A stretch of DNA of 39,612 bases from a virus (taxonomy: Duplodnaviria > Heunggongvirae > Uroviricota > Caudoviricetes): the IMG/VR virus record IMGVR_UViG_3300022758_000169; one strand, written 5' to 3'. Shown piece by piece: positions 1-39,612 of the stretch. The translations under genes were made by a program, and so were the position numbers. Numbering within the stretch: the first letter of the stretch is position 1; every line of letters starts with the position of its first letter. The notes beneath the pieces are model-generated. The model saw nothing but the letters and a program-made list of their open reading frames with translations. It was not told where the DNA came from and did no database searches.

Positions 1-357
1 TGGATATCACGCAGGCATTTGCTCACACCGACGATGTAGCAGAACATGGTGGTCAGCTCCGCCGCCGCGCCCGATACGTCGTGCCCGTCGTCCTGTAACT
101 GGTTCAGCAGATTCATCAGCAGTGAGTTCTCCGTCAGGCCGAGAACACCAGATGGGGAATGAATCAGGCTGCGGTAGCCGGGCTTCAGTGGGGCACTGTA
201 GGTTTTGTTCTCTATCTTCATCGCCTGCATTACTGCTGACGCCGTGGCGTTGGCTACCTGGTCGGCAACCATCTTTATGCGTTCTTCTTGCGGGAGCGAG
301 TTTTTTATGTAACTTCCGGTGCGGCGGATCTGAGGAAGAACCTCACCTGTAACCCAT
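1..357. repeat. inverted repeat, left copy (antirepressor C-terminal module); reverse complement of 39256..39612
   Basis: Direct comparison: window start tggatatcacgcaggca is the reverse complement of the window end; about 98 percent identity over 357 bp with roughly 8 mismatches. Confidence 0.9.
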
Positions 358-668: not shown

Positions 669-823
669 GGTGGTTATCTCCACTTAGTGATTTTAATCAC
701 CACCGCAACGCCAATTACTGGTGGTGAACTGGACAAGGTTGGCGTACCGGCCTAAGTGGTACCGGCGTCCTTTCGGACCCCTGCCCAGCCCACCATAATT
801 CGGATATAGCTGTGCTTAACGCA

Positions 824-945
824 TAAAAAAACCACGTCTGGCGTGGTATGCGCCACTTAGTAACCCGGGACGCCAATCCCGGCACTGGATTTTGCCAGTG
901 CCCGATTACTATGGCACAAGAGGAGTGCGATGTAAATTTACCGAA
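824..945 (-). ncRNA. candidate structured antisense small RNA (c4-like), copy A
   Basis: Promoter TTGATT-N17-TATTAT on minus strand, predicted three-way-junction fold, hairpin loop UUGGCGU, terminator hairpin CCACG/CGTGG followed by U7; homologous to 38686..38806. Confidence 0.45.
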
Positions 946-17159: not shown

Positions 17160-17236
17160 GTGGCATTAGCTCAGTTGGACAGAGCAACCGCCTTCTAAGC
17201 GGTTGGTCGCAGGTTCGAATCCTGCATGCCACGCCA
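17160..17236 (+). tRNA. tRNA-Arg (anticodon UCU), phage-encoded
   Basis: Manual cloverleaf: acceptor GTGGCAT/ATGCCAC, D-stem GCTC/GAGC, anticodon stem ACCGC/GCGGT with loop CTTCTAA, T-arm GCAGG-TTCGAAT-CCTGC, discriminator G, encoded CCA. Confidence 0.85.
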
Positions 17237-26274: not shown

Positions 26275-27092
26275 AACCGGGAATTTATTTCGACATCAGC
26301 AATGAGGACTACCACGCCGGTGACGGCGTGAGTAAGTCGCAACTGGACATGGTTGCCAAGAATCCGGCGCTTCTTAAATGGGTTCAGGCAGCACCAGAAG
26401 ACGAAGAGAAAAAGTCTGCACTGGATATGGGAACCGCATTGCACTGCCTGCTTCTGGAGCCTGGAGAGTTCGACAAACGCTTCATTGTTTCACCGAAATT
26501 CGATCGTCGGACGAAACAAGGTAAAGCTGACGAAGAAGCATTTCTTCGTGATGTAGCGGATATGGGGATTACGGTACTTGATGCCGAGCAGTGGCGGAAA
26601 CTGGAGCTGATGCGTGATAGCGCAATGGCTCACCCGGCGGCACGCTGGATGCTGGAAGCACCTGGTTACTGCGAAGCATCAATGTACTGGAATGATGAAG
26701 AGACTGGTGAGTTGTGCCGCATTCGTCCAGACAAATGGCTGAACGAGCACAACGTGATCGTCGACGTGAAAAAGGTTGCAGATATGGACCGTTTTGCACG
26801 CCACATCGAGGAATTCCGCTACCACGTGCAGGACGCAATGTACCGCGAAGGCGCAATGAGGGTTACTGGTCAGCCGCATGGTTTTTTCTTTCTTGCCGTG
26901 AGCGAAAGCATTGATTGTGGTCGGTATCCGGTACGCGTGTTCGAGCTGGATGCGCCGGATGTCGATGCCGGGCACGCTCTGTTCCGCCGGGATCTGAATA
27001 CCTATCACGAATGCCGCATCAACGATGAGTGGGGCGGAGTGGAAATTATTAAACGCCCTGACTGGGCACGTAAACAGGATATGTACGTATGA
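26271..27092 (+). CDS. RecE-like exonuclease (PD-(D/E)XK)
   Basis: Strong similarity to the recalled RecE catalytic domain: PGIYFDISNEDYHAG...GTALHCLLLEP...RIRPDK...VIVDVKK...YHVQDA. Confidence 0.75.
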   Translation: MKPGIYFDISNEDYHAGDGVSKSQLDMVAKNPALLKWVQAAPEDEEKKSALDMGTALHCLLLEPGEFDKRFIVSPKFDRRTKQGKADEEAFLRDVADMGITVLDAEQWRKLELMRDSAMAHPAARWMLEAPGYCEASMYWNDEETGELCRIRPDKWLNEHNVIVDVKKVADMDRFARHIEEFRYHVQDAMYREGAMRVTGQPHGFFFLAVSESIDCGRYPVRVFELDAPDVDAGHALFRRDLNTYHECRINDEWGGVEIIKRPDWARKQDMYV

Positions 27093-27463
27093 GCAATGAT
27101 ATCGCAATCACATCACAACCAGGCGCAACTGTAGGTACTGCTGCGGCAATCTTCAGCCCGGAGGGCATGAATCAACTGGTGCGTTTCGCGGAGTTGATGT
27201 CACAAAGCAAAGCGACTGTACCGAAACATCTTGAAGGCAAACCTGCCGATTGTCTGGCGGTGACCATGCAGGCGGCACAGTGGGGAATGAACCCTTTCGC
27301 CGTGGCGCAGAAAACGCATGTGGTAAACGGAACGTTAGGCTACGAAGCACAGTTGGTAAACGCGGTCGTATCCTCTTCCAGCCTGCTAGCGACACGCCTG
27401 AATTATCGCTGGAGCGGTGACTGGTCGAATGTTAACGGCAAACAGATAAATCACCGAATCTGA
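27089..27463 (+). CDS. single-strand annealing protein (Bet/RecT-like), N-terminal fragment
   Basis: Motif WGMNPF; ends in a stop while the adjacent frame continues the homology. Confidence 0.5.
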   Translation: MSNDIAITSQPGATVGTAAAIFSPEGMNQLVRFAELMSQSKATVPKHLEGKPADCLAVTMQAAQWGMNPFAVAQKTHVVNGTLGYEAQLVNAVVSSSSLLATRLNYRWSGDWSNVNGKQINHRI

Positions 27464-27471
27464 CGGTAACT

Positions 27472-27969
27472 GTGTCAGCAGTTCTTAAAGGAGAAGCAGA
27501 ACCCCGTGAGCTTACCATCAGTATGGCGCAAGCCGGAGTGCGTAACTCTCCATTGTGGGAACAGGATCCGCGCCAGCAGCTTGCCTATCTTTGCACGAAA
27601 CGATGGGCTCGCCTGCACGCTCCTGATGTGCTTCTCGGTGTTTACACCCCTGACGAATTACAGGAAACGGCACCGCGCGTTGAGCGAGACATTACTCCGC
27701 AAACGACTACTGCTGCGGGAATGAACAGTCTGATCAACGCTAAACCAGTGAAAAAGCATGATGAGCAAACGCGTAAAGCGGATAGCCGTGATCCAGAAGA
27801 AATGCTGATGGCCTTTACCAGCGCAGCGATGAATTACAGCACTGTCTCCGAACTGGATAAGGCTTACAAATACATTGCACAAAAACTTTCAGATGATGAC
27901 GAACTGCTGGCAAAAGCCACCGACGTTTACAGCGTTCGTCGGGAAGAATTAAACGAAACATCTATGTAA
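27472..27969 (+). CDS. single-strand annealing protein (Bet/RecT-like), C-terminal fragment in a different frame
   Basis: Contains ERDITP and surrounding similarity to recalled lambda Bet; frame is open upstream to 27436, overlapping the previous ORF. Confidence 0.5.
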   Translation: MSAVLKGEAEPRELTISMAQAGVRNSPLWEQDPRQQLAYLCTKRWARLHAPDVLLGVYTPDELQETAPRVERDITPQTTTAAGMNSLINAKPVKKHDEQTRKADSRDPEEMLMAFTSAAMNYSTVSELDKAYKYIAQKLSDDDELLAKATDVYSVRREELNETSM

Positions 27970-28018
27970 CCACCACCGCGGCGCCACACGCGCCGCACTG
28001 CAACCAAGAGAGGTATTT

Positions 28019-28267
28019 ATGAAAGGTGCATTAGGTAAGAAGGAACTCCTGGCGGTGGTGCCACTGTCATGGAGCACTATCGACCGTATGGAGCGCGCAG
28101 GGGAATTTCCTAAACGCTGGTATATCACTGACAAACGCTGCGCATGGAACCGTGACGAAGTTGAGCGTTGGCTTGATGAACGTCAGGCAGCAAGCCCGGC
28201 AGAGTTCCAGGGTAAAAAACCTCCTGTTCAGCAACGTGTATATCGTCCCGTGAGCAACGCTGCATGA
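28019..28267 (+). CDS. AlpA-family small DNA-binding protein (excisionase-like)
   Basis: SD GAGAGG; 82-aa ORF with pattern STIDRMERAGEFPKRWYITDKRCAWNRDEVERWL. Confidence 0.65.
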   Translation: MKGALGKKELLAVVPLSWSTIDRMERAGEFPKRWYITDKRCAWNRDEVERWLDERQAASPAEFQGKKPPVQQRVYRPVSNAA

Positions 28268-28424
28268 GTGCGCTGCTAAGGCACTGGATCAAATGGTCAG
28301 GATGGTACTTATTCCTGGCCTCTGTTTCAGCATGGCTTTATCTGCTGGCATTAATTTTCAGAGAGGGTTGGATTAAGTGAGAAAGTTAAGCCGACTTGAA
28401 AAATATCACATGAATAAGGTTTCA

Positions 28425-28676
28425 ATGCGCAGTCCGTCAAAGATTGTCGCCGTTACTCCTGCGGCGATAGAGATCGAAAAACGCGCGATTGAAAGAGAGA
28501 AAAAAGGGCAGTTCCGCATTGCCGCTCACCTTTGGCTTCAGTGTATGGATGTTGCTTCTGGTGATGTTGAGCGTGCAAGGATCGCGGTTCGCAGGGACCA
28601 ATGTATCACAAAAGGTAACGGCCTTCGCCGTGGAGACTATAGCGGTATAGGATGTTGCGGGGTGGTTTATGACTAA
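28425..28676 (+). CDS. hypothetical protein
   Basis: ATG at 28425 with AAGG upstream; stop overlaps the methyltransferase start. Confidence 0.4.
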   Translation: MRSPSKIVAVTPAAIEIEKRAIEREKKGQFRIAAHLWLQCMDVASGDVERARIAVRRDQCITKGNGLRRGDYSGIGCCGVVYD

Positions 28677-29319
28677 GAAATACACACTAATCTATGCAGA
28701 TCCACCCTGGGTATACCGGGACAAAGCCGCAGATGGTAATCGCGGTGCCGGTTTTAAATATCCGGTTATGAGTGTGATGGATATCTGCCGCCTTCCTGTG
28801 TGGGATTTGGCCGATGAAAACTGTCTGTTGGCCATGTGGTGGGTGCCAACACAACCACTCGAAGCACTAAAAGTTGTTGAAGCCTGGGGGTTCCGTCTGA
28901 TGACCATGAAGGGCTTCACGTGGATAAAATGTGGTAGTCGACAACCAGATAAACTGGTTATGGGTATGGGACACATGACTCGCGCCAATAGTGAAGATTG
29001 CCTGTTTGCAGTTAAGGGAAAACTACCTCCGCGCATTAATGCAGGGATCGTTCAGTCATTTACCGCACCGCGGCTTGAGCATTCAAGAAAACCAGATGTC
29101 GTTCGTGAAAAACTTGTGCAATTGTTAGGCGATGTTTCTCGCATTGAACTGTTCGCCCGCCAGACGTCTCATGGCTTCGATGTTTGGGGTAATCAGTGCG
29201 AAGACCCGGCAGTGCAACTACACCCCGGATACGCGTTGGATATTGGCGGATTAACAAATGCATTCAGCAATGCTCCGCTGTCACCAACAGACAACCAGGG
29301 ACGGGAGCGTGCAGCATGA
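28669..29319 (+). CDS. MT-A70-family N6-adenine DNA methyltransferase
   Basis: Catalytic motif IYADPPW near the N-terminus; 216 aa. Confidence 0.75.
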   Translation: MTKKYTLIYADPPWVYRDKAADGNRGAGFKYPVMSVMDICRLPVWDLADENCLLAMWWVPTQPLEALKVVEAWGFRLMTMKGFTWIKCGSRQPDKLVMGMGHMTRANSEDCLFAVKGKLPPRINAGIVQSFTAPRLEHSRKPDVVREKLVQLLGDVSRIELFARQTSHGFDVWGNQCEDPAVQLHPGYALDIGGLTNAFSNAPLSPTDNQGRERAA

Positions 29320-29564
29320 AGCAGATTATGGTTGCACACAACGGCGTCAGGTTTGAAGTCGTCATGGTTTTGACTAAGTTCCACAATGATGAGGTATTGC
29401 ACAGAAAAGAAACTGTAACTTACCGTTATAAACACCGCAGTTCAGCTGTTAGAAAATTACGGAAGATTGCGGAAGAACTAAAAAATGATCCTCATCGTGT
29501 TATTGAGGTAAAAGGCAACCCATATAAAATCAAAACTTCAGTGGAGCTAAGACATATGCAATAA
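29316..29564 (+). CDS. hypothetical protein
   Basis: ATGA overlap with the methyltransferase stop; 82-aa ORF. Confidence 0.45.
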   Translation: MKQIMVAHNGVRFEVVMVLTKFHNDEVLHRKETVTYRYKHRSSAVRKLRKIAEELKNDPHRVIEVKGNPYKIKTSVELRHMQ

Positions 29565-29888
29565 AATCACGCCTGACGAATCGCGATTATCTCGCTATTG
29601 GTATTGCAGAGATTGCTGGACTCAATGGCGCATGATTTGACAATGCCGCCAGAGCTATCGCATACTGACCGCACTAGAAAACAAACAGCGGTCATCCGCA
29701 CCCGATAGCTTTGCGGCTTTTTTATGCCTGCAATCTGGCATAGTCACATCCGTACAAAGGTCGGGTGGAGAGGCGTAATACAACACCCGAAAGGGGAATA
29801 TGCCCGGAGCTACTGTTTGTGCTCTAGTTGACACCCGATCACCAGCTACTAACTGGTTTTCGTAACTAAAAACAAACAGGAGGTCATC

Positions 29889-30545
29889 ATGACCAGTCAA
29901 CTCATCCCCGTATTCAACGGCACTATATCTAACGAAACAGCCCTACTTTGTAATGCCCGCGATCTGCACGCTTTTTTAGGTGTTAAAAAGGTGTTTGCAG
30001 CATGGATTACAAATCGCATATCAGAATACGAATTCATTGAAAATCAAGACTATATTTTGCTTTCCAATTTGGGAAAGCAAACATCTGGTAGAGGCGGCCA
30101 CAACCGCAAAGAGTACCACCTCACCCTTGATACAGCCAAAGAGCTGGCGATGGTCGAGCGTAACGAAAAAGGTCGCCAGGTGCGACGCTACTTCATTGAA
30201 TGCGAGAAACGTTTAAGACAACAAGAAACAAAAGTGGAGAAGGTCTTGTCAGGCTTCATGCCCGCCATTATGGAGGCGATCAAGCTGGAAGACAAAAAAG
30301 AATACAGTGCCCCACTGAAGCCCGGCTACCGCAGCCTGATTCACTCGCCGTCTGGTGTTCTCGGCCTGACGGAGCACTCACTGCTGATGAATCTGCTGAA
30401 CCAGTTACAGGACGACGGGCACGACGTATCGGGCGCGGCGGCGGAGCTGACCACCATGTTCTGCTACATCGTCGGTGTGAGCAAATGCCTGCGTGATATC
30501 CAGACTCACGCGGAGTACATCAACGACAAGGCAGGGTTCTTCTGA
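29889..30545 (+). CDS. antirepressor (AntA/KilA-N-like N-terminal domain plus shared C-terminal module)
   Basis: Strong SD AGGAGG; C-terminal 68 aa nearly identical at DNA level to the two terminal copies. Confidence 0.7.
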
Positions 30546-30578: not shown

Positions 30579-31829
30579 TTATTCCCCCGCTATCCACTTC
30601 TCAAACTTCGACGGGGAGAACGGAATCAGATCTGTATGCTCCCCGTTAATCCAGGAATCAATCATATCGGCCCACTGCTGCAACATGTAGGCGCGCTGTC
30701 TGGCGTATTCCGCTTTGTTATATACGGCGCGCACACCTTTCTGCTCATGTGCCAGAGCCTTTTCAATCCAGTCTGAAGGATAACCAGCCTCATGCAACAA
30801 CGTACTGGCTGTACGGCGCATATCATGTACAGTGAAGTCCTGAATATGCTCACCATCTTCATTTATTATTTTCACCGTTCTGTCGATCAGAGAGTTCAGC
30901 GCGGCATTAGATAATGGCTTCCGGAAATTGTAACGACCAGGAACCAGATATTCACTTCCACCAGCGCACATCTGCAACCCGACCAATATATCCTGTGCCT
31001 GTTTAGGCAGGTAAATAACGTGCGCCCGGCTTCCCTTCATGCGGTCTGGAGGAATTGTCCATGTCCATTTTTTAAAATCTATTTCATCCCACGTTGCATT
31101 GGTGAATTCGCCCTTACGAACCATAGTGATAAGCACCAGTTTTAAAGCCATTTTCATAGTGCCCATAGCACCAATGGCATCCAGCGTACGGAAGAACAGG
31201 CCAATTTCTTCTGGTGTCAGTGTTCGCTCTCGTGGTTTAAATATGGCGATAGACGAAGGTTTAATGTCAGCCGCAGGATTAAACAAACCATGACCACGGT
31301 CATTGGCGTGACGGTATACGCTGCTGATGATCTCCCTTGCCTGTACTGCTGTTGCCCGACCACCGCGTTCGACAATCCGGTCACACAAATCACGAACCAT
31401 CGATGTGGTAATTTCAGCCATCATTTTGTTGCCAAGAACCGGAAGTATGTCACGGTCGATCACTGCCTGCTTCATTGCGCGGGTACTTTCAGCCAGGATG
31501 ACGTGTTTCATATAACTGTCGGTATGTACCGCAAACGTCTCGGCACCACGAATCTTTTTGATACCGTCACGTTTAGCCGCAGCCGGCGACTGGCCTGCTT
31601 TAAGCAGCTTCTTTGCAGCAATCAGTTCTTCTCGCGCTTCTGCCAGGCTGATACCGTCACGCCCATACTGCCCGATTACCAGTGTTTCGCGGCGACCGTT
31701 GATACGGTAGTCATAGCGAAACGAGGCCGTGCCTGACGTAAGCACAGCTACATACAGCCCGTCACGATCGGAGACCTTGTACAGTTTGTCCTGCGGCTTG
31801 AGGTTTTTTAATTTTGTATCGGTAAGCAC
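30579..31829 (-). CDS. int: tyrosine integrase
   Basis: 416-aa ORF; N-terminus MLTDTKLKNLKPQDKLYKVSDRDGLY; catalytic motifs HDMRRT and AVYNKAEY near the C-terminus; apparent GTG start. Confidence 0.85.
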   Translation of the reverse strand: MLTDTKLKNLKPQDKLYKVSDRDGLYVAVLTSGTASFRYDYRINGRRETLVIGQYGRDGISLAEAREELIAAKKLLKAGQSPAAAKRDGIKKIRGAETFAVHTDSYMKHVILAESTRAMKQAVIDRDILPVLGNKMMAEITTSMVRDLCDRIVERGGRATAVQAREIISSVYRHANDRGHGLFNPAADIKPSSIAIFKPRERTLTPEEIGLFFRTLDAIGAMGTMKMALKLVLITMVRKGEFTNATWDEIDFKKWTWTIPPDRMKGSRAHVIYLPKQAQDILVGLQMCAGGSEYLVPGRYNFRKPLSNAALNSLIDRTVKIINEDGEHIQDFTVHDMRRTASTLLHEAGYPSDWIEKALAHEQKGVRAVYNKAEYARQRAYMLQQWADMIDSWINGEHTDLIPFSPSKFEKWIAGE

Positions 31830-31871
31830 AATTCACCCGTATAGAAACCATTTTCATGACGGTATGAGAGT

Positions 31872-31886
31872 ATACCTTTAAGGTAA
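31872..31886. promoter_or_regulatory. operator-like palindrome (imperfect) ATACCTTTAAGGTAA upstream of int
   Basis: About 45 bp upstream of the integrase start. Confidence 0.4.
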
Positions 31887-31937
31887 TACCGTCACCTGTA
31901 CCGCAGAAAAATATGGTGTAGAGTGAATAGAAATGAA

Positions 31938-31974
31938 TACATAAAAACAAAAACCCTCTGTAAAAACAGAGGGT
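31938..31974 (-). terminator. rho-independent terminator after the lysis cassette
   Basis: 9-bp stem AACCCTCTG/CAGAGGGTT followed by a U-rich tract on the minus strand. Confidence 0.55.
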
Positions 31975-32123
31975 TGAATTAGTATCTGAATAGGAATGAC
32001 TTGCTATGAGTTAGCTGTTAATCATTCCCACTCAATTATTTACGACAACCATAACCAATTGACTGATAACATTTTTCCAAACCTCAACTTTTCCCGTACC
32101 GTTTTATATACCGTCACCGGAAA

Positions 32124-32621
32124 TCAGTGCCACGATTTTTTCTTCTTCAGTGAATCGTATTGCTGCTCGCAGAATTCCCCTGCGATACGATACTTTTCAG
32201 CCTCAGCTGCTGTTGCGTTGTAAACTCGGTTGCTTTCTTCAAGCATGTCGGCGAGCACACCGATGACCTTGCTGGCTGGCGTGCCAGGGGGGAAAGATCC
32301 GGTATAGTGTTCGGCGAGCCGCCTGGTTTTGTCAAGCTCGGCGCGCATGCTGTCAGCAGCGGAATTAGCATACTCAGCATCAGCACGCGCCGCATCGATA
32401 CGGGATTGTGCTTCACGTTCAATTTGTGTTTTCTCCTGCTCACGCTGTGACCTTAACTTATCATCAGCCTGTTTCTGATCTTCCTTCGCCTGCGCATACC
32501 CGGCATCGTACTGACGGATGCCGTGCACATTCCAGGCAACAACTCCTGATATGACCAGAACAGCAAGCATCGCCACGATAAGTAACTGTTTACGGTATGC
32601 TTTTACAAATGCCCAGATCAT
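32124..32621 (-). CDS. i-spanin (Rz-like)
   Basis: N-terminal TM helix, long charged coiled-coil body; immediately downstream of endolysin with ATGA overlap. Confidence 0.6.
32147..32395 (-). CDS. o-spanin (Rz1-like) embedded in a different frame
   Basis: Lipoprotein signal with lipobox LLTAC, Pro-rich mature part, fully inside the i-spanin gene. Confidence 0.5.
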   Translation of the reverse strand: MRRVLMLSMLIPLLTACAPSLTKPGGSPNTIPDLSPLARQPARSSVCSPTCLKKATEFTTQQQLRLKSIVSQGNSASSNTIH

Positions 32622-33247
32622 ACCGCCAGTACCTTACTTGCTGTGATGTACCGCGCACGCCGGTCGTCGATACCGTTTCTGCCACCATTGATAATCAGAG
32701 TTACACGTACAATATCGCCGGTATACTTCATGCATCCTTTGCTGGCGAAGAACCACGCCGCGCTACGAGCCGCATATTCGTCCTGCGCCAGCAGTTCAGG
32801 GCTCTCCAGCAGGTCAACCTTCAGACCGTTTCCGCAATCACGATAGTTATTCAAACCGGTAATCTGGATAAGTCCGCGCCCTCGGTAATTCCAGCCATCA
32901 CCAGGGGCATTGTTCCCCATGCGTTTGCTGTATACCAGATTTGCGATCGCGCGCTGGCGCTCAAGTGGCAATGGTGGTTCACCAGCACGGCGCCCCAGTG
33001 CATTAGCCTGCCCCTGAGTGAGACGCCCAGCCCGAACGAAGTTAGCCAGTCCGCTGACACTGTAGTTGAAATTCTCCTGCAACCTGGTGAAGCTCCCAGA
33101 CTCATGCCCGACTTGAGCAATAAACATTGCCTGATCTTCTGCTTTGCTGATACCAAACTCTTTCATCGCAGAAGTTATATGCGAGAACCAGCGTGCGGCC
33201 AGTGCCTCGCTGATACCAGCAGCTCGCTGGAATTGTTTAATCTCCAT
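32618..33247 (-). CDS. endolysin, glycoside hydrolase family 19-like
   Basis: Start MEIKQFQ at 33247; motifs [10 protein letters not shown] and [11 protein letters not shown]. Confidence 0.75.
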
Positions 33248-33545
33248 GTTTAGACCTCGATACTTTAAAAATTTGAACGACGTTACCGCGCGTTTTAATA
33301 ACCGCAGCCAGCATGACAGCGTTGATAATGACCTCAGATAAATCCACAGCCATTGGCGTACGTAACCAGATTGCATAGGCGACTCGAACAGGAATACTGG
33401 CCGCAGCAACAATCAGGAAATAAGCAAGCCATCCTCCCCACCTTCGATGTTGAGAGCCGTTACGCCGGAATGTGACAACGCGAATTGCTATGCCAGTGCA
33501 AATAACTGCATTGGTGATAAGCAAAAAAAACTCATGCGTTACCAT
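33237..33545 (-). CDS. membrane protein (holin or antiholin candidate)
   Basis: 102-aa ORF with predicted TM segments between holin and endolysin. Confidence 0.45.
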
Positions 33546-33936
33546 CGTCTTTTCTCCCCGGAATTAACTCGCGTGGATTATCGGAACGGTGATAGAGCCA
33601 TATACCAATACGCACAGCGACAATTGCTGACACGAATGCGCCTGCAGAGAAAACAATCCCTTTTTCAAAAGAGTCCTGCGTGATGGTAGGGATCAGGCTG
33701 GCTATGCCGATAAGAATTGATGCTGCTGGTTTGTAAAAGAGAAGGCCACAAAGAAAGCTGAGCATCGAAAGGAGCACCCGGCGACGGATGGGGTACTCTA
33801 CTGCAGAGGTAACAAAAATTACCGCCCCAGCCAAAGCCCCTAAAGCAACCTCCGGAGGGACACCTGCAATAACCGCAGCAAGAGAACCAAAACTAAGCAA
33901 CTGATTTAATTGCTCACTTGTTACTTGAGCAGACAT
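33532..33936 (-). CDS. holin candidate
   Basis: SD AGGAGAAAG; 134-aa ORF with several predicted TM helices; first gene of the lysis cassette. Confidence 0.55.
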   Translation of the reverse strand: MSAQVTSEQLNQLLSFGSLAAVIAGVPPEVALGALAGAVIFVTSAVEYPIRRRVLLSMLSFLCGLLFYKPAASILIGIASLIPTITQDSFEKGIVFSAGAFVSAIVAVRIGIWLYHRSDNPRELIPGRKDDGNA

Positions 33937-34217
33937 ACTTTCTCCTGTTTACTATCTATAAGCCAGTCAATTATTGATGACTAACCCCGCATAGTAAACC
34001 ATATATGAATCATTATTGTTCCATATCATATATCTCAATAAAAGTACTAATGATTTTACAGAACGAGCCAGCAGAGTGGGGGCAGTTGTACAGGAACCAT
34101 AGACTTAATTTTGTATTTAATAATGCTATGGTGTAATAAACCTGAACATGTATTTAAAATACGTACTGATTCATGATAGAATTCAAAGATAACTTTTCAC
34201 CAACTCCGTTTTTGATA

Positions 34218-34244
34218 CCCGCAATATTTTGCGGGCTTTTTTTT
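34218..34244 (+). terminator. plus-strand intrinsic terminator with no annotated upstream plus-strand gene
   Basis: CCCGCAA-uauu-UUGCGGG followed by U8; overlaps the tailspike stop codon on the other strand. Confidence 0.45.
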
Positions 34245-37200
34245 AACGTTCTTCCAGAGACTGAACCCGCTCTTTTATCTTATCCATTTCTCTGCGCTGC
34301 CATGCTGCCTCGATATAGAATAAGAGATCAGGTCTGACCCCCCATCTAGATCCTGCTGGCGTTATTTCAACGCGCTCAATGATGTCTTCTATTACCATCA
34401 CTGGATTATCATCCTCATCAACAATGATGCTCCCGTCATTATCAGTCAGCGGCATTTCCCTTTGGCCAGTAATGACGTCATCATATACTGCGGGATAATC
34501 GTCATAGCAAAGAAAGGCATAGCGGCATGTTGTGCTTTCTTCTTCCATGAGTCCGTGAGAAATAAGAACATCACGAAGTTGCTGCGCGATTACACCATGA
34601 TGTATCCTCGCCCCTTCTTCCCCCTTTATAGCGACAGCGTTCAGCCATTTATAAGCGATATACCTGACGTCACCCCAGGCATCCAGCAATGCTTCGTCAG
34701 GAGAGACCGGCTCTGTCTTTAATGTTCCGTCACTGGTAACCACAGGATTGGAGCCAAGATAAACTGTCGAGAACCTGTTTCCCGGACCACCAAGAGCATT
34801 TACATTATCAAGATAAGGTTTAACATCTCCGTTCTCAAAAAGATGTTCGAGTGCGTTATATACCGCGCGACGTGGAGTACTGCTTCCGGAACCATGCAAC
34901 GTTATCATTGCACCATCTGCTGAAGACGTTGTTTCACCGCCGCTAACGATTAATCTCTGAGCGGTAACATCATCAGACGGTACTTTCTTCGCAATAATGG
35001 CGTAATTACCCTCAAGTTTGACTTCCGCGCGAACTTGTCCTGATGTACCTGCATGGACAGTCAGTGACTGGACGGCAACATCATCTGTGAAATCAACGGG
35101 TACAGGAACCGTCCTCACGCCTGACGTCGACATAAAAGTAGGAAGCGTTCTGTTAGGAGTGGCTCCGTAGACAAAATCCCTTGAAACAAATTCTTCCTGT
35201 TTAATTTTCACCCTGAAACAATACAAATCAGCCGGGTGACCATCGTGAACATAAGGATATTTTCTGTTGTTATCCCCTATGCTCCATGGGTTTAGAAAGT
35301 CTTCCCCACCGAAAATGTAGTACAGCCAGTTGTCTTTGATACAAACTGAACCAACACCAACCGCAGAGTTAACTATTCCGCCCTGATAAATCTGATCAGT
35401 AACATTAACCCACTCTACATTATCCAGACTCCACTCATTGACGTTAACTCTGGTCATAAATGTTCTTGGATAATTTCCTGCATAACGGTTATCAGGTTCT
35501 CCTCCTTCCCACTCACCAAATGCGCGCTCACTGCCAAAAATAATCAGCTCATCGCCAACTTTGGCAAAAGGAAGGTTTGAGTGATGAACATTATTTGGGA
35601 AGCGAAGAGAATTCCATGATGTACCTAAATCAGAGCTTCTGTGCAATGAACTACCGGGTTGAGTACTTAATGTCCCCCTGGTCGTCAGATACAGAATGCC
35701 ATCATAATATTTTACACATGGCTCAGATGCATTCGCCTCATATTCTGCAGGTATGCGTCTGCGAACAAAGCTACCAGGAGAACCGAAAGCATCAGAGAAA
35801 TAGAGTATCCCAAGCTCGCGTGGACCAATATCACCATTATGGTAGCCAACAGCAAAACTGTTATCGCTAATCGTCGCAAAACTGTGAATCTCAGTAACAG
35901 GAGTGCTTCCGTCAACAAAAGAAGGAATAGTTCCAAGACTGGTTTTTCTCCATGGTGACGAGTGAAATGATGTACCAAAACTCCAGTATCTACCCTCGTT
36001 ATTCTGATCCACATCCTGGGTATTTTGCGTCGTAACTGTAAAAGTATTTTTATCAATAACAGTAGTCACCGTCATATTCCCGGTAACACCTGTAACACCA
36101 GAGTTTGAGAAGTTGACAAAATCACCAGCAAATAATCCGTGATCAGTAATGCGAATATAAGCGACTTGCTGATTTGCTGCTTTCGTTATACCACCATAAA
36201 CGCGAAGGCTGCGACTCATTGGGCGATCCCACAACTCTGCAACCTGCAGTTTATTTCCGCTCACGGTCCGCGTCTCAATTACAGCAAAAAGGCGATTTCT
36301 GACAACCCCCATACTCATGCAGTGATAGTTAACTGTGGGATAGTTTTCATGTAAATCTGTAAGCCATTCCGGCGTTGTCCAGGTCTTCCCGTCATCTCCT
36401 GAGCGAACCCATGCAACATGGAGGTTATTTACACCATGGCGGTCTCCAGCCATAAAAGGCGCATAGATGACATTGTCATATACAAACGTTTTATCCTGCG
36501 TCCAGGCGTTGTACCACGGTGTATCTGTAATTTTAAATAACTCTCCCTGGATAAAATCTTCAGAAGCATAAAAAAGAGGCTGACCCGGTATTCTCTCAAA
36601 TAAAAAACGAGCATTTTTAAATCGACTGACATCCGGAAGAGTTGATACTTTAAAAGTAAGCCCTAATCCGTCAATTTTATAACCTGGAGATGAGGCTTCA
36701 AGGCACGCGCTTATTGCAGTGGAATCGTCATTTATACCATCACCAACAGCTCCAAAATCTTTGGGGCTAATAGCATCACGCATTTTATCCTGGAACGTTC
36801 GGTACACAGCCCCAGAACCATACTGAATAAACCAACCAAAACCACCAACAACCCCGGCGATTGCAGCATCGACATAATTACGCATTGAGCGATTATTTAC
36901 AGCGTCCTGCTCAAATGATGGATCTGCAAGGTTAGAAATTTTGTTTTGCTTTGCATCGTAATATTTTGCAAGCAAAGATGGTTTCATCAATGCACGTCTG
37001 AACCACCCAAAACATTGCTGGATCAGCATCGTCAGGTAGTCAAAGGCATCTTCATGCACTTCGGGGAAAAATTTTCCCTGATTGCGAAGGTCTGTCTCCT
37101 GCACTACATCAAGCACACGATCTATCGTAATTCGCCATCCAGTAGCAAGCGGAGACGGAAGAACCACAGAACCGCCACTATAAGTGCCCGCCCCAGTTAC

Positions 37201-37362
37201 CGTATAACCGGTATCCAGAACCAATTCTGTTACGTTTCCGTTCAGGTCAGACACCTGAACAACCAGGTCTGATTTTCTGAAAATTCGAAAAGTATACGGA
37301 AACGATGTCGTAACGCCGTTACCGGTGTATTCGTTGTGGTCAACTTCGGTTGAGACCGTCAT
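34243..37362 (-). CDS. tailspike with Asp-box (BNR) motifs and C-terminal self-cleaving chaperone-like domain
   Basis: 1039 aa; N-terminus MTVSTEVDHNEYTGNGVTTSFPYTF; Asp-boxes SGDDGKTW and SDLGTSW; C-terminal VVTSDGTLK with the Ser codon at 34732..34734. Confidence 0.8.
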   Translation of the reverse strand: MTVSTEVDHNEYTGNGVTTSFPYTFRIFRKSDLVVQVSDLNGNVTELVLDTGYTVTGAGTYSGGSVVLPSPLATGWRITIDRVLDVVQETDLRNQGKFFPEVHEDAFDYLTMLIQQCFGWFRRALMKPSLLAKYYDAKQNKISNLADPSFEQDAVNNRSMRNYVDAAIAGVVGGFGWFIQYGSGAVYRTFQDKMRDAISPKDFGAVGDGINDDSTAISACLEASSPGYKIDGLGLTFKVSTLPDVSRFKNARFLFERIPGQPLFYASEDFIQGELFKITDTPWYNAWTQDKTFVYDNVIYAPFMAGDRHGVNNLHVAWVRSGDDGKTWTTPEWLTDLHENYPTVNYHCMSMGVVRNRLFAVIETRTVSGNKLQVAELWDRPMSRSLRVYGGITKAANQQVAYIRITDHGLFAGDFVNFSNSGVTGVTGNMTVTTVIDKNTFTVTTQNTQDVDQNNEGRYWSFGTSFHSSPWRKTSLGTIPSFVDGSTPVTEIHSFATISDNSFAVGYHNGDIGPRELGILYFSDAFGSPGSFVRRRIPAEYEANASEPCVKYYDGILYLTTRGTLSTQPGSSLHRSSDLGTSWNSLRFPNNVHHSNLPFAKVGDELIIFGSERAFGEWEGGEPDNRYAGNYPRTFMTRVNVNEWSLDNVEWVNVTDQIYQGGIVNSAVGVGSVCIKDNWLYYIFGGEDFLNPWSIGDNNRKYPYVHDGHPADLYCFRVKIKQEEFVSRDFVYGATPNRTLPTFMSTSGVRTVPVPVDFTDDVAVQSLTVHAGTSGQVRAEVKLEGNYAIIAKKVPSDDVTAQRLIVSGGETTSSADGAMITLHGSGSSTPRRAVYNALEHLFENGDVKPYLDNVNALGGPGNRFSTVYLGSNPVVTSDGTLKTEPVSPDEALLDAWGDVRYIAYKWLNAVAIKGEEGARIHHGVIAQQLRDVLISHGLMEEESTTCRYAFLCYDDYPAVYDDVITGQREMPLTDNDGSIIVDEDDNPVMVIEDIIERVEITPAGSRWGVRPDLLFYIEAAWQRREMDKIKERVQSLEER

Positions 37363-37466
37363 GTTAAATCTCCAGATAGTCGCAGCACCCGTTGCGCCGC
37401 ATATCTGGTTATTCTATTACCTGGAAAACCACATATGGATAGAAAGGCTGTAAATACGAATAGATA

Positions 37467-37481
37467 TTACCTTTCAGGTAA
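37467..37481. promoter_or_regulatory. operator-like palindrome TTACCTTTCAGGTAA
   Basis: In the divergent intergenic region between the tailspike start and the ORF at 37557. Confidence 0.5.
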
Positions 37482-37556
37482 TTTGCAAAACGTGCTGGAT
37501 AGCAAACAAATTATTTGATACTGTATAAATATCAGTTATTGCATGGAGAAGATAAG

Positions 37557-37814
37557 ATGCAGCAGTATCACTATCCACTGGAAGACGGATTTACCGAAAG
37601 GATTCACACGCCGGGAGGCGTCAGGTCACTGGTGGAGGGATCGCACTTGATGAAATTACTCCGGGATCTCGATAAGGATGGATTTAATGTCGATGGCCCA
37701 CTTGCCGAACTGACTGCACTGATTAACTACGTCACCAGCTCACAGATGTCTATGCAGGATCTGCAAACACATCTCGACTATTGTGCCGAACAATTACGAA
37801 AACAAACCCGGTAA
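37557..37814 (+). CDS. hypothetical protein (85 aa)
   Basis: SD GGAGAAG then ATG; convergent with the gene at 37837..38565. Confidence 0.45.
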   Translation: MQQYHYPLEDGFTERIHTPGGVRSLVEGSHLMKLLRDLDKDGFNVDGPLAELTALINYVTSSQMSMQDLQTHLDYCAEQLRKQTR

Positions 37815-37820
37815 ATTTAA

Positions 37821-37838
37821 AGGCCGCAAGAGCGGCCT
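37821..37838. terminator. hairpin between convergent genes
   Basis: AGGCCGC-aaga-GCGGCCT. Confidence 0.35.
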
Positions 37839-38565
37839 ATCGTTTCGCTTTGTGCTCGTCCCAGCACGTTTTGCACCATGCCATTAAGCCGTCCGCATTT
37901 TGATTATTAGGGTAAAAGCTGGTCCGTTTTCTGCGGACATTACAAATTGGGCACCACTTCATATGGCGTGTATTCTTTGGGCCATCGAGACACCTTGCAC
38001 ACCACTTAGTCAATCCATCTGGATTTTTTGACGATTTCCGGAATTTGTCATATGGAAGGTTTATTCTGCATCGCAAACACTGCTTGCGGCCACTTGAAAC
38101 TCTGTTAGCTGATTCTTCTTTTGGCGGCGATACAGAAGGTATTCTTGCTGGCTCTGATACTGCCTGAGGTGCTTTTTTAGATGACTGAGACGATATGTCA
38201 TCACCAGGGAATCTTCCATGATATGCCGGACGCGTTGACACTCCAGGTGGAAGCTCAGCTGTAAACGGCTTTGGCTGAATCAGTTGCCTCTCTTTTGCTA
38301 ACTCCTGCTGTTTATAATATGTCTGGATTACCGCACTATCATAAGCAGGAGGTACGGAAATATCAGGCGCGTTACCTCCAGTTTTTTGAAAATGAGTAGA
38401 TGTGTGTTCTATCACCTGTGTACGACTAATCGTTACCTCCCCATCTTCGGTCTTTATCGTTTTGTTCTGATTAACGACCGTACGATCAGAGATCTTAGTC
38501 TTGTTCTGGTTGATAACGTAAATAATCACCGCAACCACACCAACAACTATCCAGAAAACTTCCAT
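37837..38565 (-). CDS. membrane-anchored protein with C-terminal double Cys4 repeats (moron)
   Basis: N-terminus MEVFWIVVGVVAVIIYVI is a predicted TM helix; C-terminal repeats CLRC...WCARC and CPIC...WCKTC; promoter, leader and start shared with the ORF at 1559. Confidence 0.55.
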   Translation of the reverse strand: MEVFWIVVGVVAVIIYVINQNKTKISDRTVVNQNKTIKTEDGEVTISRTQVIEHTSTHFQKTGGNAPDISVPPAYDSAVIQTYYKQQELAKERQLIQPKPFTAELPPGVSTRPAYHGRFPGDDISSQSSKKAPQAVSEPARIPSVSPPKEESANRVSSGRKQCLRCRINLPYDKFRKSSKNPDGLTKWCARCLDGPKNTRHMKWCPICNVRRKRTSFYPNNQNADGLMAWCKTCWDEHKAKR

Positions 38566-38585
38566 TGCTTTTCCTCACAATAACA

Positions 38586-38600
38586 TTACCTTAAAGGTAA
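38586..38600. promoter_or_regulatory. operator-like palindrome TTACCTTAAAGGTAA
   Basis: Upstream of the minus-strand gene at 38565; mirror of the site at 1524..1538. Confidence 0.5.
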
Positions 38601-38678
38601 TATCTTGCTTTCAGGTGATCAAGCGTTAAACGCAATCAACCAAATACGGTTGATTTTAATATTTCTTCGCGTTTATCA

Positions 38679-38693
38679 TTACCTTTGCGGTAA
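38679..38693. promoter_or_regulatory. operator-like palindrome TTACCTTTGCGGTAA overlapping the sRNA promoter
   Basis: Promoter TTGATT (38651..38656) - N17 - TATCAT (38674..38679); the site covers the predicted start. Confidence 0.5.
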
Positions 38694-38806
38694 ATTTACA
38701 TCGCACTCCTCTTGTGCCATAGTAATCGGGCACTGGCAAAATCCAGTGCCGGGATTGGTCTCCCGGATTACTACAGAGGCACATATGCCGCATAAGCGGT
38801 TTTTTT
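38686..38806 (+). ncRNA. candidate structured antisense small RNA (c4-like), copy B
   Basis: Predicted fold: outer stem 38713..38718/38778..38783, stem 38721..38727/38766..38772, hairpin 38729..38750, hairpin 38751..38764 with loop UUGGUC, then terminator hairpin plus U7 (38800..38806). Confidence 0.5.
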
Positions 38807-38960
38807 ATGTGTAAAGCGCACCTATTCTATGGTGGGCTGTGTGGGGGCACCGAAAGGTGCGCCGGGTTCCTTTGTAGCCGGTAAGACCAACTCTGCACAG
38901 TTCACCACCATCTGATTGGTCTCAGCGGTGGTGATTAACCTAACTACAAAGGTGATCGCC

Positions 38961-39612
38961 ATGAATACCAAACCTTCCATCTTTTCCTTTGAGTTATCCT
39001 GCCAGATCCGTATGTTCATGATTGACGGAGAACCTTGGTTTGTCACCAAAGATGTGTGCAATGCTTTGAATATTGATGTTACACAAGCGAGAAAACTTGA
39101 TAAAAAAGGGCTGGAACAAAAAGGGGGTCTGTATTCAATACAGACCCCTGGTGGAATACAAGAACTATCCATCGTTTCAGATCAGGTCTCTACATCCTTA
39201 TTCTGCGTTGCAAAGAGGCAATGACTGAGGGAACGAGAGCATTCAGATTTCTTGAATGGGTTACAGGTGAGGTTCTTCCTCAGATCCGCCGCACCGGAAG
39301 TTACATTAAAAACTCGCTCCCGCAGGAAGAACGCATAAAGATGGTTGCCGACCAGGTAGCCAACGCCACGGCGTCAGCAGTAATGCAGGCGATGAAGATA
39401 GAGAACAAAACCTACAGTGCCCCGCTGAAGCCCGGCTACCGCAGCCTGATTCATTCGCCGTCGGGTGTTCTCGGCCTGACGGAGCACTCACTGCTGATGA
39501 ATCTGCTGAACCAGTTACAGGACGACGGGCACGACGTATCGGGCGCGGCGGCGGAGCTGACCACCATGTTCTGCTACATCGTCGGTGTGAGCAAATGCCT
39601 GCGTGATATCCA
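38961..39612 (+). pseudogene. antirepressor (BRO-N plus shared C-terminal module), frame-disrupted by a 1-nt deletion near 39182; 3' end cut by window edge
   Basis: BRO-N frame (MNTKPSIFSF...) stops at 39224; homology continues in the +2 frame (SGLYILILRCKEAMTEGTRAFRFLEWVTGEV...); copy A has GAGTCAGGC where this copy has GATCAGGT. Confidence 0.55.
39256..39612. repeat. inverted repeat, right copy; a third direct copy of the last ~200 bp lies at 30302..30501
   Basis: Direct comparison with 1..357 and with 30302..30501 (about 3 mismatches over 200 bp). Confidence 0.9.

What the first reader, a model, noticed from the sequence alone, without database searches (positions are those of the whole stretch)
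28377..29564. MT-A70 adenine methyltransferase in a three-gene unit with two unknown small proteins
The methyltransferase (DPPW motif) has no adjacent restriction endonuclease. Its start overlaps the stop of the upstream 83-aa ORF and its stop overlaps the start of the downstream 82-aa ORF, so the three are likely co-translated. It may protect phage DNA from host restriction or play an epigenetic regulatory role; the partners are uncharacterised.
Basis: partly seen in the sequence, partly recalled or inferred. Interest (0 to 1): 0.4.

Follow-up and report, generated by a model that had tools for sequence, protein, structure and literature searches.

The report
Orphan adenine methyltransferase in phiV10-like phage
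This is the already-annotated stand-alone adenine methyltransferase of a phiV10/epsilon15-type temperate E. coli phage, sitting in a tightly packed early operon; the claimed three-gene unit is not a unit, though the small PerC-type gene in front of it recurs beside such enzymes in unrelated phages and could be an untested partner.

Summary
The ORFs and overlaps are real. The 216-aa protein (28669-29319) is a complete MT-A70 N6-adenine methyltransferase with DPPW and no nuclease partner. It is 97.7% identical to phiV10 gp33 and carries the same annotation in RefSeq.

It is not a three-gene unit. The start/stop overlap chain spans five genes of the repressor-controlled early-left operon: AlpA, a 38-aa membrane ORF, PerC-like, the methyltransferase and orf82.

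The upstream ORF is not unknown. It is a PerC/ANR-family protein, most likely 99 aa from GTG 28377. It is a conserved Uetakevirus backbone gene, and relatives carry 1-3 extra genes between it and the methyltransferase.

The downstream 82-aa ORF is a rare AT-rich accessory gene (19 of 5426 E. coli genomes). It always travels with an antirepressor cassette, and its one distant homolog lies in an element with no methyltransferase nearby.

The most likely function is a Dam-like (GATC) DNA methyltransferase made on infection or induction. Relatives tested alone methylate GATC. The 83%-identical Stx-phage enzyme instead needs an upstream partner, PNB-2, and prefers 16S rRNA. PNB-2 and the matching C-terminal tail are absent here.

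One lead remains: PerC/ANR genes abut MT-A70 genes in at least four unrelated phage backgrounds.

The parts
25758..25786 (+). Promoter-like site (TTGACA-17-AATTAT) just after the repressor gene (25083-25667) and its terminator (25688-25707). This is the probable start of the early-left operon that contains the methyltransferase.
   Evidence: The position matches the operator/promoter region annotated in epsilon15 and phiV10. Consensus match only; function not shown.
28019..28267 (+). AlpA-family excisionase/regulator, the first gene of the overlap chain.
   Evidence: Pfam PF05930 and phrog_66. Its TGA overlaps the ATG at 28264. 4-5 synonymous and 0 non-synonymous differences between alleles.
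28264..28380 (+). 38-aa hydrophobic ORF, the homolog of phiV10 gp35 / epsilon15 gp32 'membrane protein'.
   Evidence: Its stop overlaps the GTG at 28377 (GTGA).
28377..28676 (+). PerC/ANR-family small protein, 99 aa from GTG (RefSeq aa from ATG 28426; phiV10 aa). It is a conserved Uetakevirus backbone gene. Predicted as a helical bundle plus a C-terminal hairpin.
   Evidence: Pfam PF06069, 30.1 bits. NCBIfam ANR, 23.6 bits, below cutoff. phrog_868 1-99/99. N-terminus conserved. 4-9 synonymous against 0-1 non-synonymous changes. AlphaFold2 mean pLDDT 74.
28669..29319 (+). Orphan MT-A70 (beta-class) N6-adenine methyltransferase, 216 aa, with DPPW at residues 11-14 (nt 28699-28710).
   Evidence: Pfam PF05063 full length. 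PADLOC MTase_II. Matches PDB MTA1/METTL3 catalytic domains. 97.7% identical to phiV10 gp33 and 83% to the Stx-phage PA8 enzyme over residues 1-187. 40% identical to the GATC-specific BZS1 p32.
29316..29564 (+). orf82, a rare AT-rich (38% GC) accessory ORF of unknown function. It is part of an orf82+ant cassette and is not a methyltransferase partner.
   Evidence: AlphaFold2 gives a beta-beta-alpha-beta-beta fold at pLDDT 80 with no structural match. 6 non-synonymous against 2 synonymous differences between alleles.
29645..29723 (+). Long hairpin followed by a T-run, the probable intrinsic terminator ending the early-left operon.
   Evidence: Minimum-free-energy fold of 29560-29890 (z = -4.77 for the region) and the sequence itself. 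Inferred.
29759..29848 (+). Match to Rfam sRNA-Xcc1 (RF02221), 40 nt upstream of ant. It belongs to the ant cassette.
   Evidence: 64.8 bits against a gathering score of 53, E 1e-11.
29889..30545 (+). AntA/Ant antirepressor, present in every orf82-carrying locus whose flank was examined.
   Evidence: Pfam PF08346, phrog_377.
30579..31829 (-). P4-type tyrosine integrase, convergent with the operon and marking its end.

Best explanation
The window is the genome of a phiV10/epsilon15-type (Uetakevirus) temperate E. coli podophage. The methyltransferase is the phage's own orphan beta-class (MT-A70) N6-adenine methyltransferase.

It is the seventh or so gene of the repressor-controlled early-left operon: gp36-like, RecE-like, RecT, AlpA/Xis, 38-aa membrane ORF, PerC-like, methyltransferase, orf82. 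That operon runs from a promoter just downstream of the repressor gene to a hairpin terminator about 80 nt past orf82. The enzyme is therefore made on infection or induction and not in the stable lysogen (inferred from operon position).

Most likely it is a Dam-like DNA methyltransferase that methylates GATC, or a relaxed adenine context, on rapidly replicating phage DNA. That would protect the DNA from methylation-sensitive restriction and keep it fully methylated (inferred from tested relatives).

The overlapping starts and stops reflect the general tight packing and translational coupling of this operon. They also coincide with module-exchange junctions. They do not define a dedicated three-gene machine.

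The upstream gene is the conserved PerC/ANR-family small protein of these phages. The downstream orf82 is a horizontally acquired accessory gene that arrived together with an antirepressor cassette.
For: Identity and context:
- The region is 96.9-99% identical in DNA to phiV10-type phages, and 100% identical over 28000-29900 to an E. coli prophage at guaA annotated 'MT-A70 family methyltransferase' and 'PerC family transcriptional regulator'.
- The enzyme looks intact: full-length PF05063, DPPW, and alignment to MTA1/METTL3 catalytic domains.
- No nuclease is adjacent.
- Operon layout: repressor terminator and promoter-like site; no other + strand terminator before the hairpin at 29645-29723; the same layout is annotated in epsilon15 and phiV10.

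DNA/GATC function:
- Serratia phage BZS1 p32 is an MT-A70 enzyme 40% identical to this one. Expressed alone in dam- E. coli it made DNA MboI-resistant and DpnI-sensitive (PMC7556043).
- The O104 Stx-phage homolog M.EcoGV is listed as GATC-specific (PMC6602927; PMC10810198). The window enzyme is 82-83% identical to Stx-phage enzymes of that kind over residues 1-187; the M.EcoGV sequence itself was not compared here.

Not a unit:
- The genes between PerC and the methyltransferase vary.
- The downstream slot varies.
- orf82 is rare and travels with ant. Its one distant homolog sits in an element with no methyltransferase in the flanks examined.
Against: - No experiment exists on this enzyme or on phiV10 gp33; the target is extrapolated from relatives at 40% and 83% identity.
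- The closest biochemically studied relative, PA8 M.EcoPA8orf6770P, showed almost no DNA activity alone in vitro, including on unmethylated GATC DNA. With its upstream partner PNB-2 it preferred 16S rRNA (PMC10810198).
- E. coli already has Dam, so a GATC enzyme looks redundant.
- GATC is neither depleted nor enriched in the phage (observed/expected 0.79-1.0), which gives no independent support.
- A PerC/ANR gene abutting MT-A70 recurs in unrelated phages. That hints the upstream gene may matter for the enzyme after all.
Confidence: 0.6

Rival explanations
1. The PerC-like protein is a bona fide subunit or specificity/activity factor of the methyltransferase. The pair would form a two-gene module, analogous to PNB-2 plus methyltransferase in Stx phages or METTL14/MTA9 partners in eukaryotes. 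Translational coupling would ensure co-production.
For: - A PerC-domain ORF directly abuts the MT-A70 gene (about 2-8 nt overlap or gap) in window/phiV10 and in six lambdoid nin-region loci with no Uetakevirus genes: Dryocola, two Buttiauxella, Lonsdalea and two Acerihabitans. Pfam confirms PerC in three of the four lambdoid neighbours scanned, with the fourth weak and below cutoff.
- In the myovirus BZS1 the immediate upstream gene is ANR family (NCBIfam 1e-13).
- PerC-positive loci fall in at least three methyltransferase clades.
- All 80 IMG/VR loci with this PerC have the methyltransferase next to it.
- The precedent of an upstream gene product being a 1:1 partner is experimental (PMC10810198). 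PNB-2 homologs likewise recur upstream of 42%-diverged MT-A70 genes.
- The predicted PerC fold is a small helical bundle resembling protein-binding MIT/TPR modules only weakly.
Against: - In Tyrion, SPC32N, epsilon15 and several prophages, 1-3 other genes lie between PerC and the methyltransferase.
- About 22 of 40 species-level loci and most distant phage loci have no PerC/ANR gene upstream.
- BZS1 p32 methylated GATC when expressed without its ANR neighbour.
- The PerC profile shows no similarity to PNB-2.
- The only PerC-methyltransferase fusions found are explained by a 1-nt loss in a T-run or by a deletion, each on a single contig.
- No paper links PerC and MT-A70.
- The loci are phylogenetically non-independent.
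Confidence: 0.2
2. The enzyme is an RNA (16S rRNA) methyltransferase that tunes translation and prophage induction, like the Stx-phage M.EcoPA8orf6770P-PNB-2 holoenzyme.
For: 83% identity to the PA8 catalytic subunit over residues 1-187. The PA8 holoenzyme prefers 16S rRNA/30S subunits, and the DPPW->APPA mutant loses the phenotype (PMC10810198).
Against: - The partner that confers RNA preference, PNB-2, is absent from the window.
- The C-terminal roughly 27 residues, proposed by the authors to be needed for the holoenzyme, are replaced here by an unrelated tail.
- The authors themselves note that variants lacking that C-terminal region occur without PNB-2.
- The modified rRNA base was never identified.
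Confidence: 0.1
3. The enzyme is an epigenetic regulator acting in the lysogen, changing host or prophage gene expression by methylation.
For: Orphan methyltransferases can regulate genes (general knowledge). The Stx-phage gp6-gp5 pair was reported as induced near stationary phase in lysogens (personal communication cited in PMC10810198).
Against: The gene lies deep in the repressor-controlled early-left operon. No promoter-like site was found immediately upstream of PerC or the methyltransferase.
Confidence: 0.07
4. One reading: the three ORFs form a dedicated co-translated unit whose two small proteins work with the methyltransferase.
For: Real start/stop overlaps at both junctions, and a Shine-Dalgarno-like GGGAG 8 nt before the orf82 ATG.
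Against: orf82 is present in 19 of 5426 E. coli genomes, against hundreds that carry the methyltransferase region, and in 4 of 80 IMG/VR loci. It always comes with ant. Its distant homolog has no methyltransferase nearby. The overlap chain spans five genes.
Confidence: 0.03

Closest known systems
phiV10 gp33 (PhiV10p33, 'DNA methyltransferase / putative adenine methylase') with gp34 (PerC-like transcriptional activator), Escherichia phage phiV10, NC_007804
   Same: 97.7% protein identity for the methyltransferase and 100% for the 88 aa annotated for PerC. Same gene order AlpA, membrane ORF, PerC, methyltransferase, same overlaps, same integrase.
   Different: phiV10 has a DUF1382 gene after the methyltransferase instead of orf82 plus ant. 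DNA similarity stops at window 29324, the end of the methyltransferase gene. Neither protein has been tested experimentally, as far as the searched literature shows.
M.EcoPA8orf6770P-PNB-2 of Stx2a phage PA8 (Gong, Chakraborty & Koudelka, NAR 2023, PMC10810198) and its O104:H4 homolog M.EcoGV
   Same: MT-A70 fold, DPPW, 83% identity over residues 1-187. Located near int in a temperate coliphage. The start codon overlaps the stop of a small upstream gene.
   Different: The C-terminal tail is unrelated. The upstream gene here is PerC-like, not PNB-2 (no similarity). The phage backbone is different (lambdoid Stx phage against Uetakevirus). The reported substrate for PA8 is 16S rRNA with PNB-2, whereas GATC DNA is reported for M.EcoGV when overexpressed.
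PhiBZS1_p32, the GATC-specific MT-A70 methyltransferase of Serratia phage vB_SspM_BZS1 (PMC7556043), and M.EfaBMDam of Tn1549
   Same: Phage-borne orphan MT-A70 enzyme next to the integration module, preceded directly by a PerC/ANR-family small gene.
   Different: Only 40% identity, with a roughly 20-residue insertion absent here. Myovirus background.
PerC/Pch (EPEC/EHEC LEE activators) and ANR (Aar) small regulators
   Same: The upstream ORF matches Pfam PerC above threshold and NCBIfam ANR weakly. It is a small helical protein.
   Different: It belongs to a phage-specific subfamily with a conserved N-terminal extension and a C-terminal YSGI...GVVYD hairpin. No evidence connects it to ler/LEE or AraC-type regulators.

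Membership tests
MT-A70 / beta-class N6-adenine methyltransferase (Pfam PF05063) | Full-length match to the family profile above the curated threshold | tested here: met
   79.8 bits against 23.9, profile positions 1-172/172. phrog_359 and PADLOC MTase_II also match.
MT-A70 / beta-class N6-adenine methyltransferase (Pfam PF05063) | Catalytic motif IV (D/N)PP(W/Y) near the N-terminus, ahead of the SAM-binding region (permuted beta order) | tested here: met
   ADPPW at residues 10-14. The alignment to MTA1 and METTL3 catalytic domains runs through residues 3-171.
MT-A70 / beta-class N6-adenine methyltransferase (Pfam PF05063) | SAM-dependent methyl transfer to adenine N6 | not testable with these tools
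   Needs an enzyme assay or a methylome.
Dam-like GATC-specific phage MT-A70 enzymes (BZS1 p32, M.EfaBMDam, M.EcoGV) | Sequence relationship to members with experimentally determined GATC specificity | tested here: met
   40% identity to BZS1 p32. 82-83% identity to Stx-phage enzymes of the kind the literature names M.EcoGV; the M.EcoGV sequence itself was not compared.
Dam-like GATC-specific phage MT-A70 enzymes (BZS1 p32, M.EfaBMDam, M.EcoGV) | Methylation of GATC (DpnI-sensitive, MboI-resistant DNA) | not testable with these tools
   GATC frequency in the phage is uninformative.
M.EcoPA8orf6770P-PNB-2 16S rRNA methyltransferase holoenzyme | PNB-2 gene immediately upstream | tested here: not met
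   The upstream gene is PerC-like. BLAST and profile comparison with PNB-2 find nothing.
M.EcoPA8orf6770P-PNB-2 16S rRNA methyltransferase holoenzyme | STEC-type C-terminal ~27 residues of the catalytic subunit | tested here: not met
   Similarity ends at residue 187; the tails are unrelated.
M.EcoPA8orf6770P-PNB-2 16S rRNA methyltransferase holoenzyme | Preference for 16S rRNA / 30S subunits | not testable with these tools
   Biochemical property.
Type II restriction-modification system | Cognate restriction endonuclease gene adjacent to the methyltransferase | tested here: not met
   Neighbours are AlpA, membrane ORF, PerC, orf82, Ant and Int. PADLOC hits only the methyltransferase.
PerC family (PF06069), for the upstream ORF | Profile match above the gathering score | tested here: met
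   30.1 bits against 22.6. RefSeq names it 'PerC family transcriptional regulator'.
ANR family (NCBIfam NF033650), for the upstream ORF | Profile match above the curated cutoff | tested here: not met
   23.6 bits against a cutoff of 32. The BZS1 neighbour p33 does pass, at 50.9 bits.
PerC family (PF06069), for the upstream ORF | Transcriptional activation (for example of ler) | not testable with these tools
The predicted structure shows no canonical DNA-binding fold.

The most novel reading that the evidence does not exclude
Phage MT-A70 methyltransferases are modular two-component enzymes. The small gene translationally coupled upstream would supply an exchangeable adaptor that sets substrate or activity. 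Known or candidate adaptors are PNB-2-type winged-helix proteins, PerC/ANR-type helical proteins, and winged-helix-PerC fusions. In this phage the PerC-like protein, a family so far known only as 'transcriptional activators' of virulence loci, would be a methyltransferase subunit.
Probability: 0.18. Interest if true: 0.6.

Novelty: already known. Interest (0 to 1): 0.27.

Why it matters
As it stands this is routine phage annotation. Orphan Dam-like methyltransferases are common in temperate enterobacterial phages, and this gene and its PerC-type neighbour are already named in RefSeq and in the phiV10 record.

Its residual value is as a test case for two open points.

(i) It bears on whether this MT-A70 clade methylates DNA (GATC) or rRNA, on which the literature disagrees.

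(ii) It bears on whether PerC/ANR small proteins can act as methyltransferase partners. Their mechanism is poorly understood, and they are important in EPEC/EHEC virulence regulation. The phiV10-type pair is the simplest system for this test: two overlapping genes with no PNB-2.

Tried and rejected
- orf82 homology: a word-indexed search of 5.8 billion proteins found one 90% cluster. Full phmmer against 1.84 billion representatives found one real homolog (72 aa, 55% identity), a fragment, and a spurious repeat protein.
- orf82 families and structure: Pfam, NCBIfam and PADLOC gave nothing, and PHROGs only an unknown-function family. Foldseek of a pLDDT-80 model against PDB and BFVD gave no significant match. 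Function remains unknown.
- PerC-like structure: Foldseek against PDB gave only weak MIT/TPR-like hits (E >= 0.24), not used as evidence of homology.
- PNB-2 as a relative of the PerC-like protein or orf82: rejected by BLAST and hhalign.
- 'Rosetta-stone' fusions: P0007 (PerC+MT-A70, 297 aa) is explained by loss of one T in GGTTTATG, and P0005 by an internal deletion. Each is on one contig, so they are not counted as evidence.
- tblastn with the BZS1 ANR protein found only itself.
- GATC and palindrome statistics gave no signal.
- The Fang et al. 2012 paper on M.EcoGV could not be read. Its result is cited second-hand from PMC10810198 and PMC6602927.
- The terminator scan found no + strand terminator after orf82. 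The hairpin at 29645-29723 comes from the fold and from inspection.
Full report
**1. What is in the sequence**

The three ORFs exist as described.
- The central ORF (28669-29319, 216 aa) begins MTKKYTLIYADPPW.
- It matches the whole Pfam MT-A70 profile (PF05063, positions 1-172/172, 79.8 bits against a cutoff of 23.9).
- It also matches PHROG 359 'DNA methyltransferase' and a PADLOC type II methyltransferase model.
- Among solved structures it aligns to the catalytic domains of ciliate MTA1 and human METTL3.

Its ATG lies 8 nt inside the upstream ORF (ATGACTAA), and its TGA overlaps the ATG of the 82-aa ORF (ATGA). A GGGAG sits 8 nt before that ATG. No neighbour is a nuclease of a restriction system.

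**2. Where it comes from**

The window is a phiV10/epsilon15-type (Uetakevirus) temperate coliphage.
- The 1.9-kb region is 96.9-99% identical to phages HEMP4, PAS61 and phiV10.
- It is 100% identical to a prophage at guaA in an E. coli chicken isolate. RefSeq there already calls the genes 'PerC family transcriptional regulator', 'MT-A70 family methyltransferase', 'hypothetical protein' and 'phage antirepressor Ant'.
- The methyltransferase is 97.7% identical to phiV10 gp33.

After the integrase gene the window continues into phage lysis, tail and antirepressor genes. The integrated copy diverges at 32036 into guaA. The window therefore carries the phage-form junction, not a host junction.

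**3. The 'unit' is an operon segment, not a three-gene machine**

Upstream, AlpA (28019-28267) overlaps a 38-aa membrane ORF (28264-28380) by ATGA. The stop of that ORF overlaps a GTG at 28377 (GTGA) that opens the 99-aa form of the upstream ORF.

That longer form is the likely gene.
- The stretch KLSRLEKYH, which lies before the ATG used by RefSeq, is conserved in epsilon15, Tyrion and more than 100 database clusters, mostly 97-127 aa.
- PHROG 868 covers residues 1-99.

The overlap chain therefore spans five genes. They sit in the early-left operon. The repressor gene (25083-25667) is followed by a terminator (25688-25707) and a promoter-like site (25758-25786). No + strand terminator follows until a long hairpin plus T-run at 29645-29723. 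The same layout, with mapped operators, is annotated in epsilon15.

Across 40 species-level loci encoding relatives of the methyltransferase, a 1-8 nt overlap with whatever gene lies upstream is the norm. Those upstream genes include NinB, replication proteins, HNH, DndB and others. Overlap alone is therefore not evidence of partnership.

**4. The upstream ORF**

It is a PerC-family protein (PF06069, 30.1 bits against a cutoff of 22.6). It has a sub-threshold match to the related ANR family.

It is under clear purifying selection: 4-9 synonymous against 0-1 non-synonymous differences between alleles.

The AlphaFold2 model (pLDDT 74) shows four helices and a C-terminal hairpin. It resembles MIT/TPR bundles only weakly.

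Every Uetakevirus-type locus examined has it. In Tyrion, SPC32N, epsilon15 and a Klebsiella phage, however, one to three other genes lie between it and the methyltransferase: a 52-59-aa protein, a winged-helix protein, or a DndB-like protein. The gene after PerC always starts at the same ATGAC(T)AA junction, so this junction looks like a module-exchange point.

**5. The downstream ORF**

orf82 is rare.
- It occurs in 19 of 5426 complete E. coli genomes, 1 of 50,697 phage records, and one 90% cluster among 5.8 billion proteins.
- An exhaustive phmmer search found one genuine homolog (72 aa, 55% identity). That supports orf82 as a real gene.
- The homolog lies in a P4-integrase element with no methyltransferase or Ant in the flanks examined.

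orf82 is AT-rich (38% GC against about 50% around it). Between alleles it shows 6 non-synonymous against 2 synonymous changes. It folds confidently (pLDDT 80) into a beta-beta-alpha-beta-beta unit with no structural relatives.

In every orf82-carrying locus whose flank was examined, an ant gene follows. Among 80 IMG/VR loci with this PerC and methyltransferase, the slot after the methyltransferase holds DUF1382 in 46, nothing recognised in 30, and orf82+ant in 4. DNA similarity to phiV10 ends exactly at the methyltransferase stop.

orf82 therefore belongs to an inserted cassette made of orf82, the terminator, an sRNA-Xcc1-like element and ant. It does not belong to the methyltransferase.

**6. 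What the methyltransferase probably does**

Two lines of published work bear on this.

(a) DNA/GATC.
- Serratia phage BZS1 p32 is an MT-A70 enzyme next to its integration module. Expressed alone in dam- E. coli it rendered DNA MboI-resistant and DpnI-sensitive (PMC7556043). It is 40% identical to the window enzyme.
- The O104:H4 Stx-phage enzyme M.EcoGV is listed as GATC-specific (PMC6602927).

(b) RNA.
- The PA8 Stx-phage enzyme is 83% identical over residues 1-187. Alone in vitro it was nearly inactive on DNA.
- It co-purified 1:1 with PNB-2, the product of the overlapping upstream gene. The complex preferred 16S rRNA (PMC10810198).
- The authors note that isoforms lacking the STEC-type C-terminal region occur without PNB-2.

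The window enzyme has an unrelated C-terminal tail and no PNB-2.

I therefore favour a Dam-like DNA methyltransferase that is expressed on infection or induction and acts on replicating phage DNA (confidence about 0.6). The rRNA model is at about 0.1. GATC statistics in the phage are neutral.

**7. The one non-trivial lead**

A PerC-domain ORF directly abuts the MT-A70 gene in four backgrounds.
- In phiV10-type phages.
- In six lambdoid nin-region loci that share no Uetakevirus genes: Dryocola, two Buttiauxella, Lonsdalea and two Acerihabitans. Three of these carry winged-helix-PerC fusions of 147-170 aa.
- In an IMG/VR relative of the Acerihabitans locus.
- In the myovirus BZS1, where the neighbour p33 is a clear ANR-family protein.

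These methyltransferases fall in at least three clades interspersed with PerC-less ones.

Likewise, PNB-2 homologs (54% identity) sit upstream of BZS1-type methyltransferases that are only 42% identical to the PA8 enzyme. This is seen in HK639, RothD and ST15-VIM1phi2.1.

This suggests exchangeable upstream adaptor genes. Several points count against it.
- Adjacency is broken in many Uetakeviruses.
- More than half of the sampled loci have neither family upstream.
- BZS1 p32 worked without its neighbour.
- The loci are not phylogenetically independent.
- No paper connects PerC with MT-A70.

I give the partner hypothesis about 0.2.

**8. Verdict**

It is partly wrong: there is no three-gene unit, and one 'unknown' is PerC-family.

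The feature is already annotated in public records and is ordinary for temperate enterobacterial phages. Interest is low to moderate, and it rests only on the untested PerC/ANR-MT-A70 association.

Noticed in passing
window 29759-29848 (+): Robust match to Rfam sRNA-Xcc1 (RF02221; 64.8 bits against a gathering score of 53; E 1e-11). It lies 40 nt upstream of the ant start codon, inside a strongly structured intergenic region (z = -4.77). It may be a 5' leader or regulatory RNA of the antirepressor cassette rather than a free-standing sRNA.
   Followed up: partly
window 27439 (RecT, 27089-27969): RecT is split into two ORFs by loss of one A in an A-run (AAAA to AAA). The comparison is with the otherwise identical 882-nt gene of NZ_CM163382.1, which shows 0 mismatches. 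This is either a homopolymer sequencing error or a fresh pseudogene.
   Followed up: yes
window 1-431 and 39182-39612; also 1-213 against 30290-30502: The two ends of the window are 431-nt inverted repeats (92% complementary) that start exactly at base 1 and end at the last base. They are copies of the C-terminal part of an ant gene, and a third copy is the ant at 30290-30502 (96%). Mirror-image isrK + C4 antisense-RNA pairs lie at 717-901 (-) and 38730-38912 (+). This looks like a contig bounded by an unresolved inverted repeat of an immunity (ant/C4) module.
   Followed up: partly
window 31830-39612; junction near 32036: Beyond the integrase the window continues with phiV10-type lysis, tail-fibre and antirepressor genes, not host DNA. 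The integrated copy in NZ_CM163382.1 diverges at about 32036 into guaA. The window thus holds attP (phage form), with the att core near 32036.
   Followed up: partly
window 29645-29723 (+): A long imperfect hairpin with an inner hairpin, followed by TTTTTT. It is the probable operon terminator and was missed by the consensus scan. A promoter-like TTGACA-18-CATACT (29637-29666) overlaps its 5' arm.
   Followed up: partly
window 17160-17233 (+): A tRNA gene inside the phage (Rfam tRNA, 73.3 bits).
   Followed up: no
window 25966/25975, against L001 2921-3975: The related prophage in NZ_CM163382.1 carries an extra ~1-kb gene (hypothetical, 344 aa) at the start of the early-left operon. It is absent from the window.
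   Followed up: no
L006 1437-2504 (Salmonella phage SPC32N) and L019 1937-3004 (Citrobacter werkmanii): A DndB-family (DNA-sulfur-modification-associated) gene is inserted between PerC and the MT-A70 gene and overlaps the methyltransferase start by 4 nt. This places a second DNA-modification-related protein next to the enzyme.
   Followed up: no
L135 773-1201, L142 400-828, L146 567-995: Homologs of the Stx-phage partner PNB-2 (53-55% identity, 142 aa) lie upstream of BZS1-type MT-A70 genes in Klebsiella phages ST15-VIM1phi2.1 and RothD and in coliphage HK639. The one such methyltransferase compared (ST15-VIM1phi2.1) is only 42% identical to the PA8 enzyme. The partner is more conserved than the enzyme.
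   Followed up: partly
protein P0007 (297 aa) and P0005 (263 aa), Logan assemblies: These are in-frame PerC-MT-A70 fusion proteins. P0007 is explained by loss of one T in the GGTTTATG overlap, and P0005 by an internal deletion. Each was seen on one contig only, so they are likely artefacts or sporadic mutants.
   Followed up: partly
L005 2284-2511 and 3145-3351 (Enterobacter phage Tyrion): The methyltransferase is flanked on both sides by small proteins. The upstream gp30 is a winged-helix protein (Pfam HTH_24, above its gathering score). The downstream gp28 looks similar by eye, but its only Pfam match is a weak hit to an unrelated DUF family. The Stx-phage locus likewise has a DUF1627 protein that looks like a winged helix by eye but was not scanned.
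   Followed up: no
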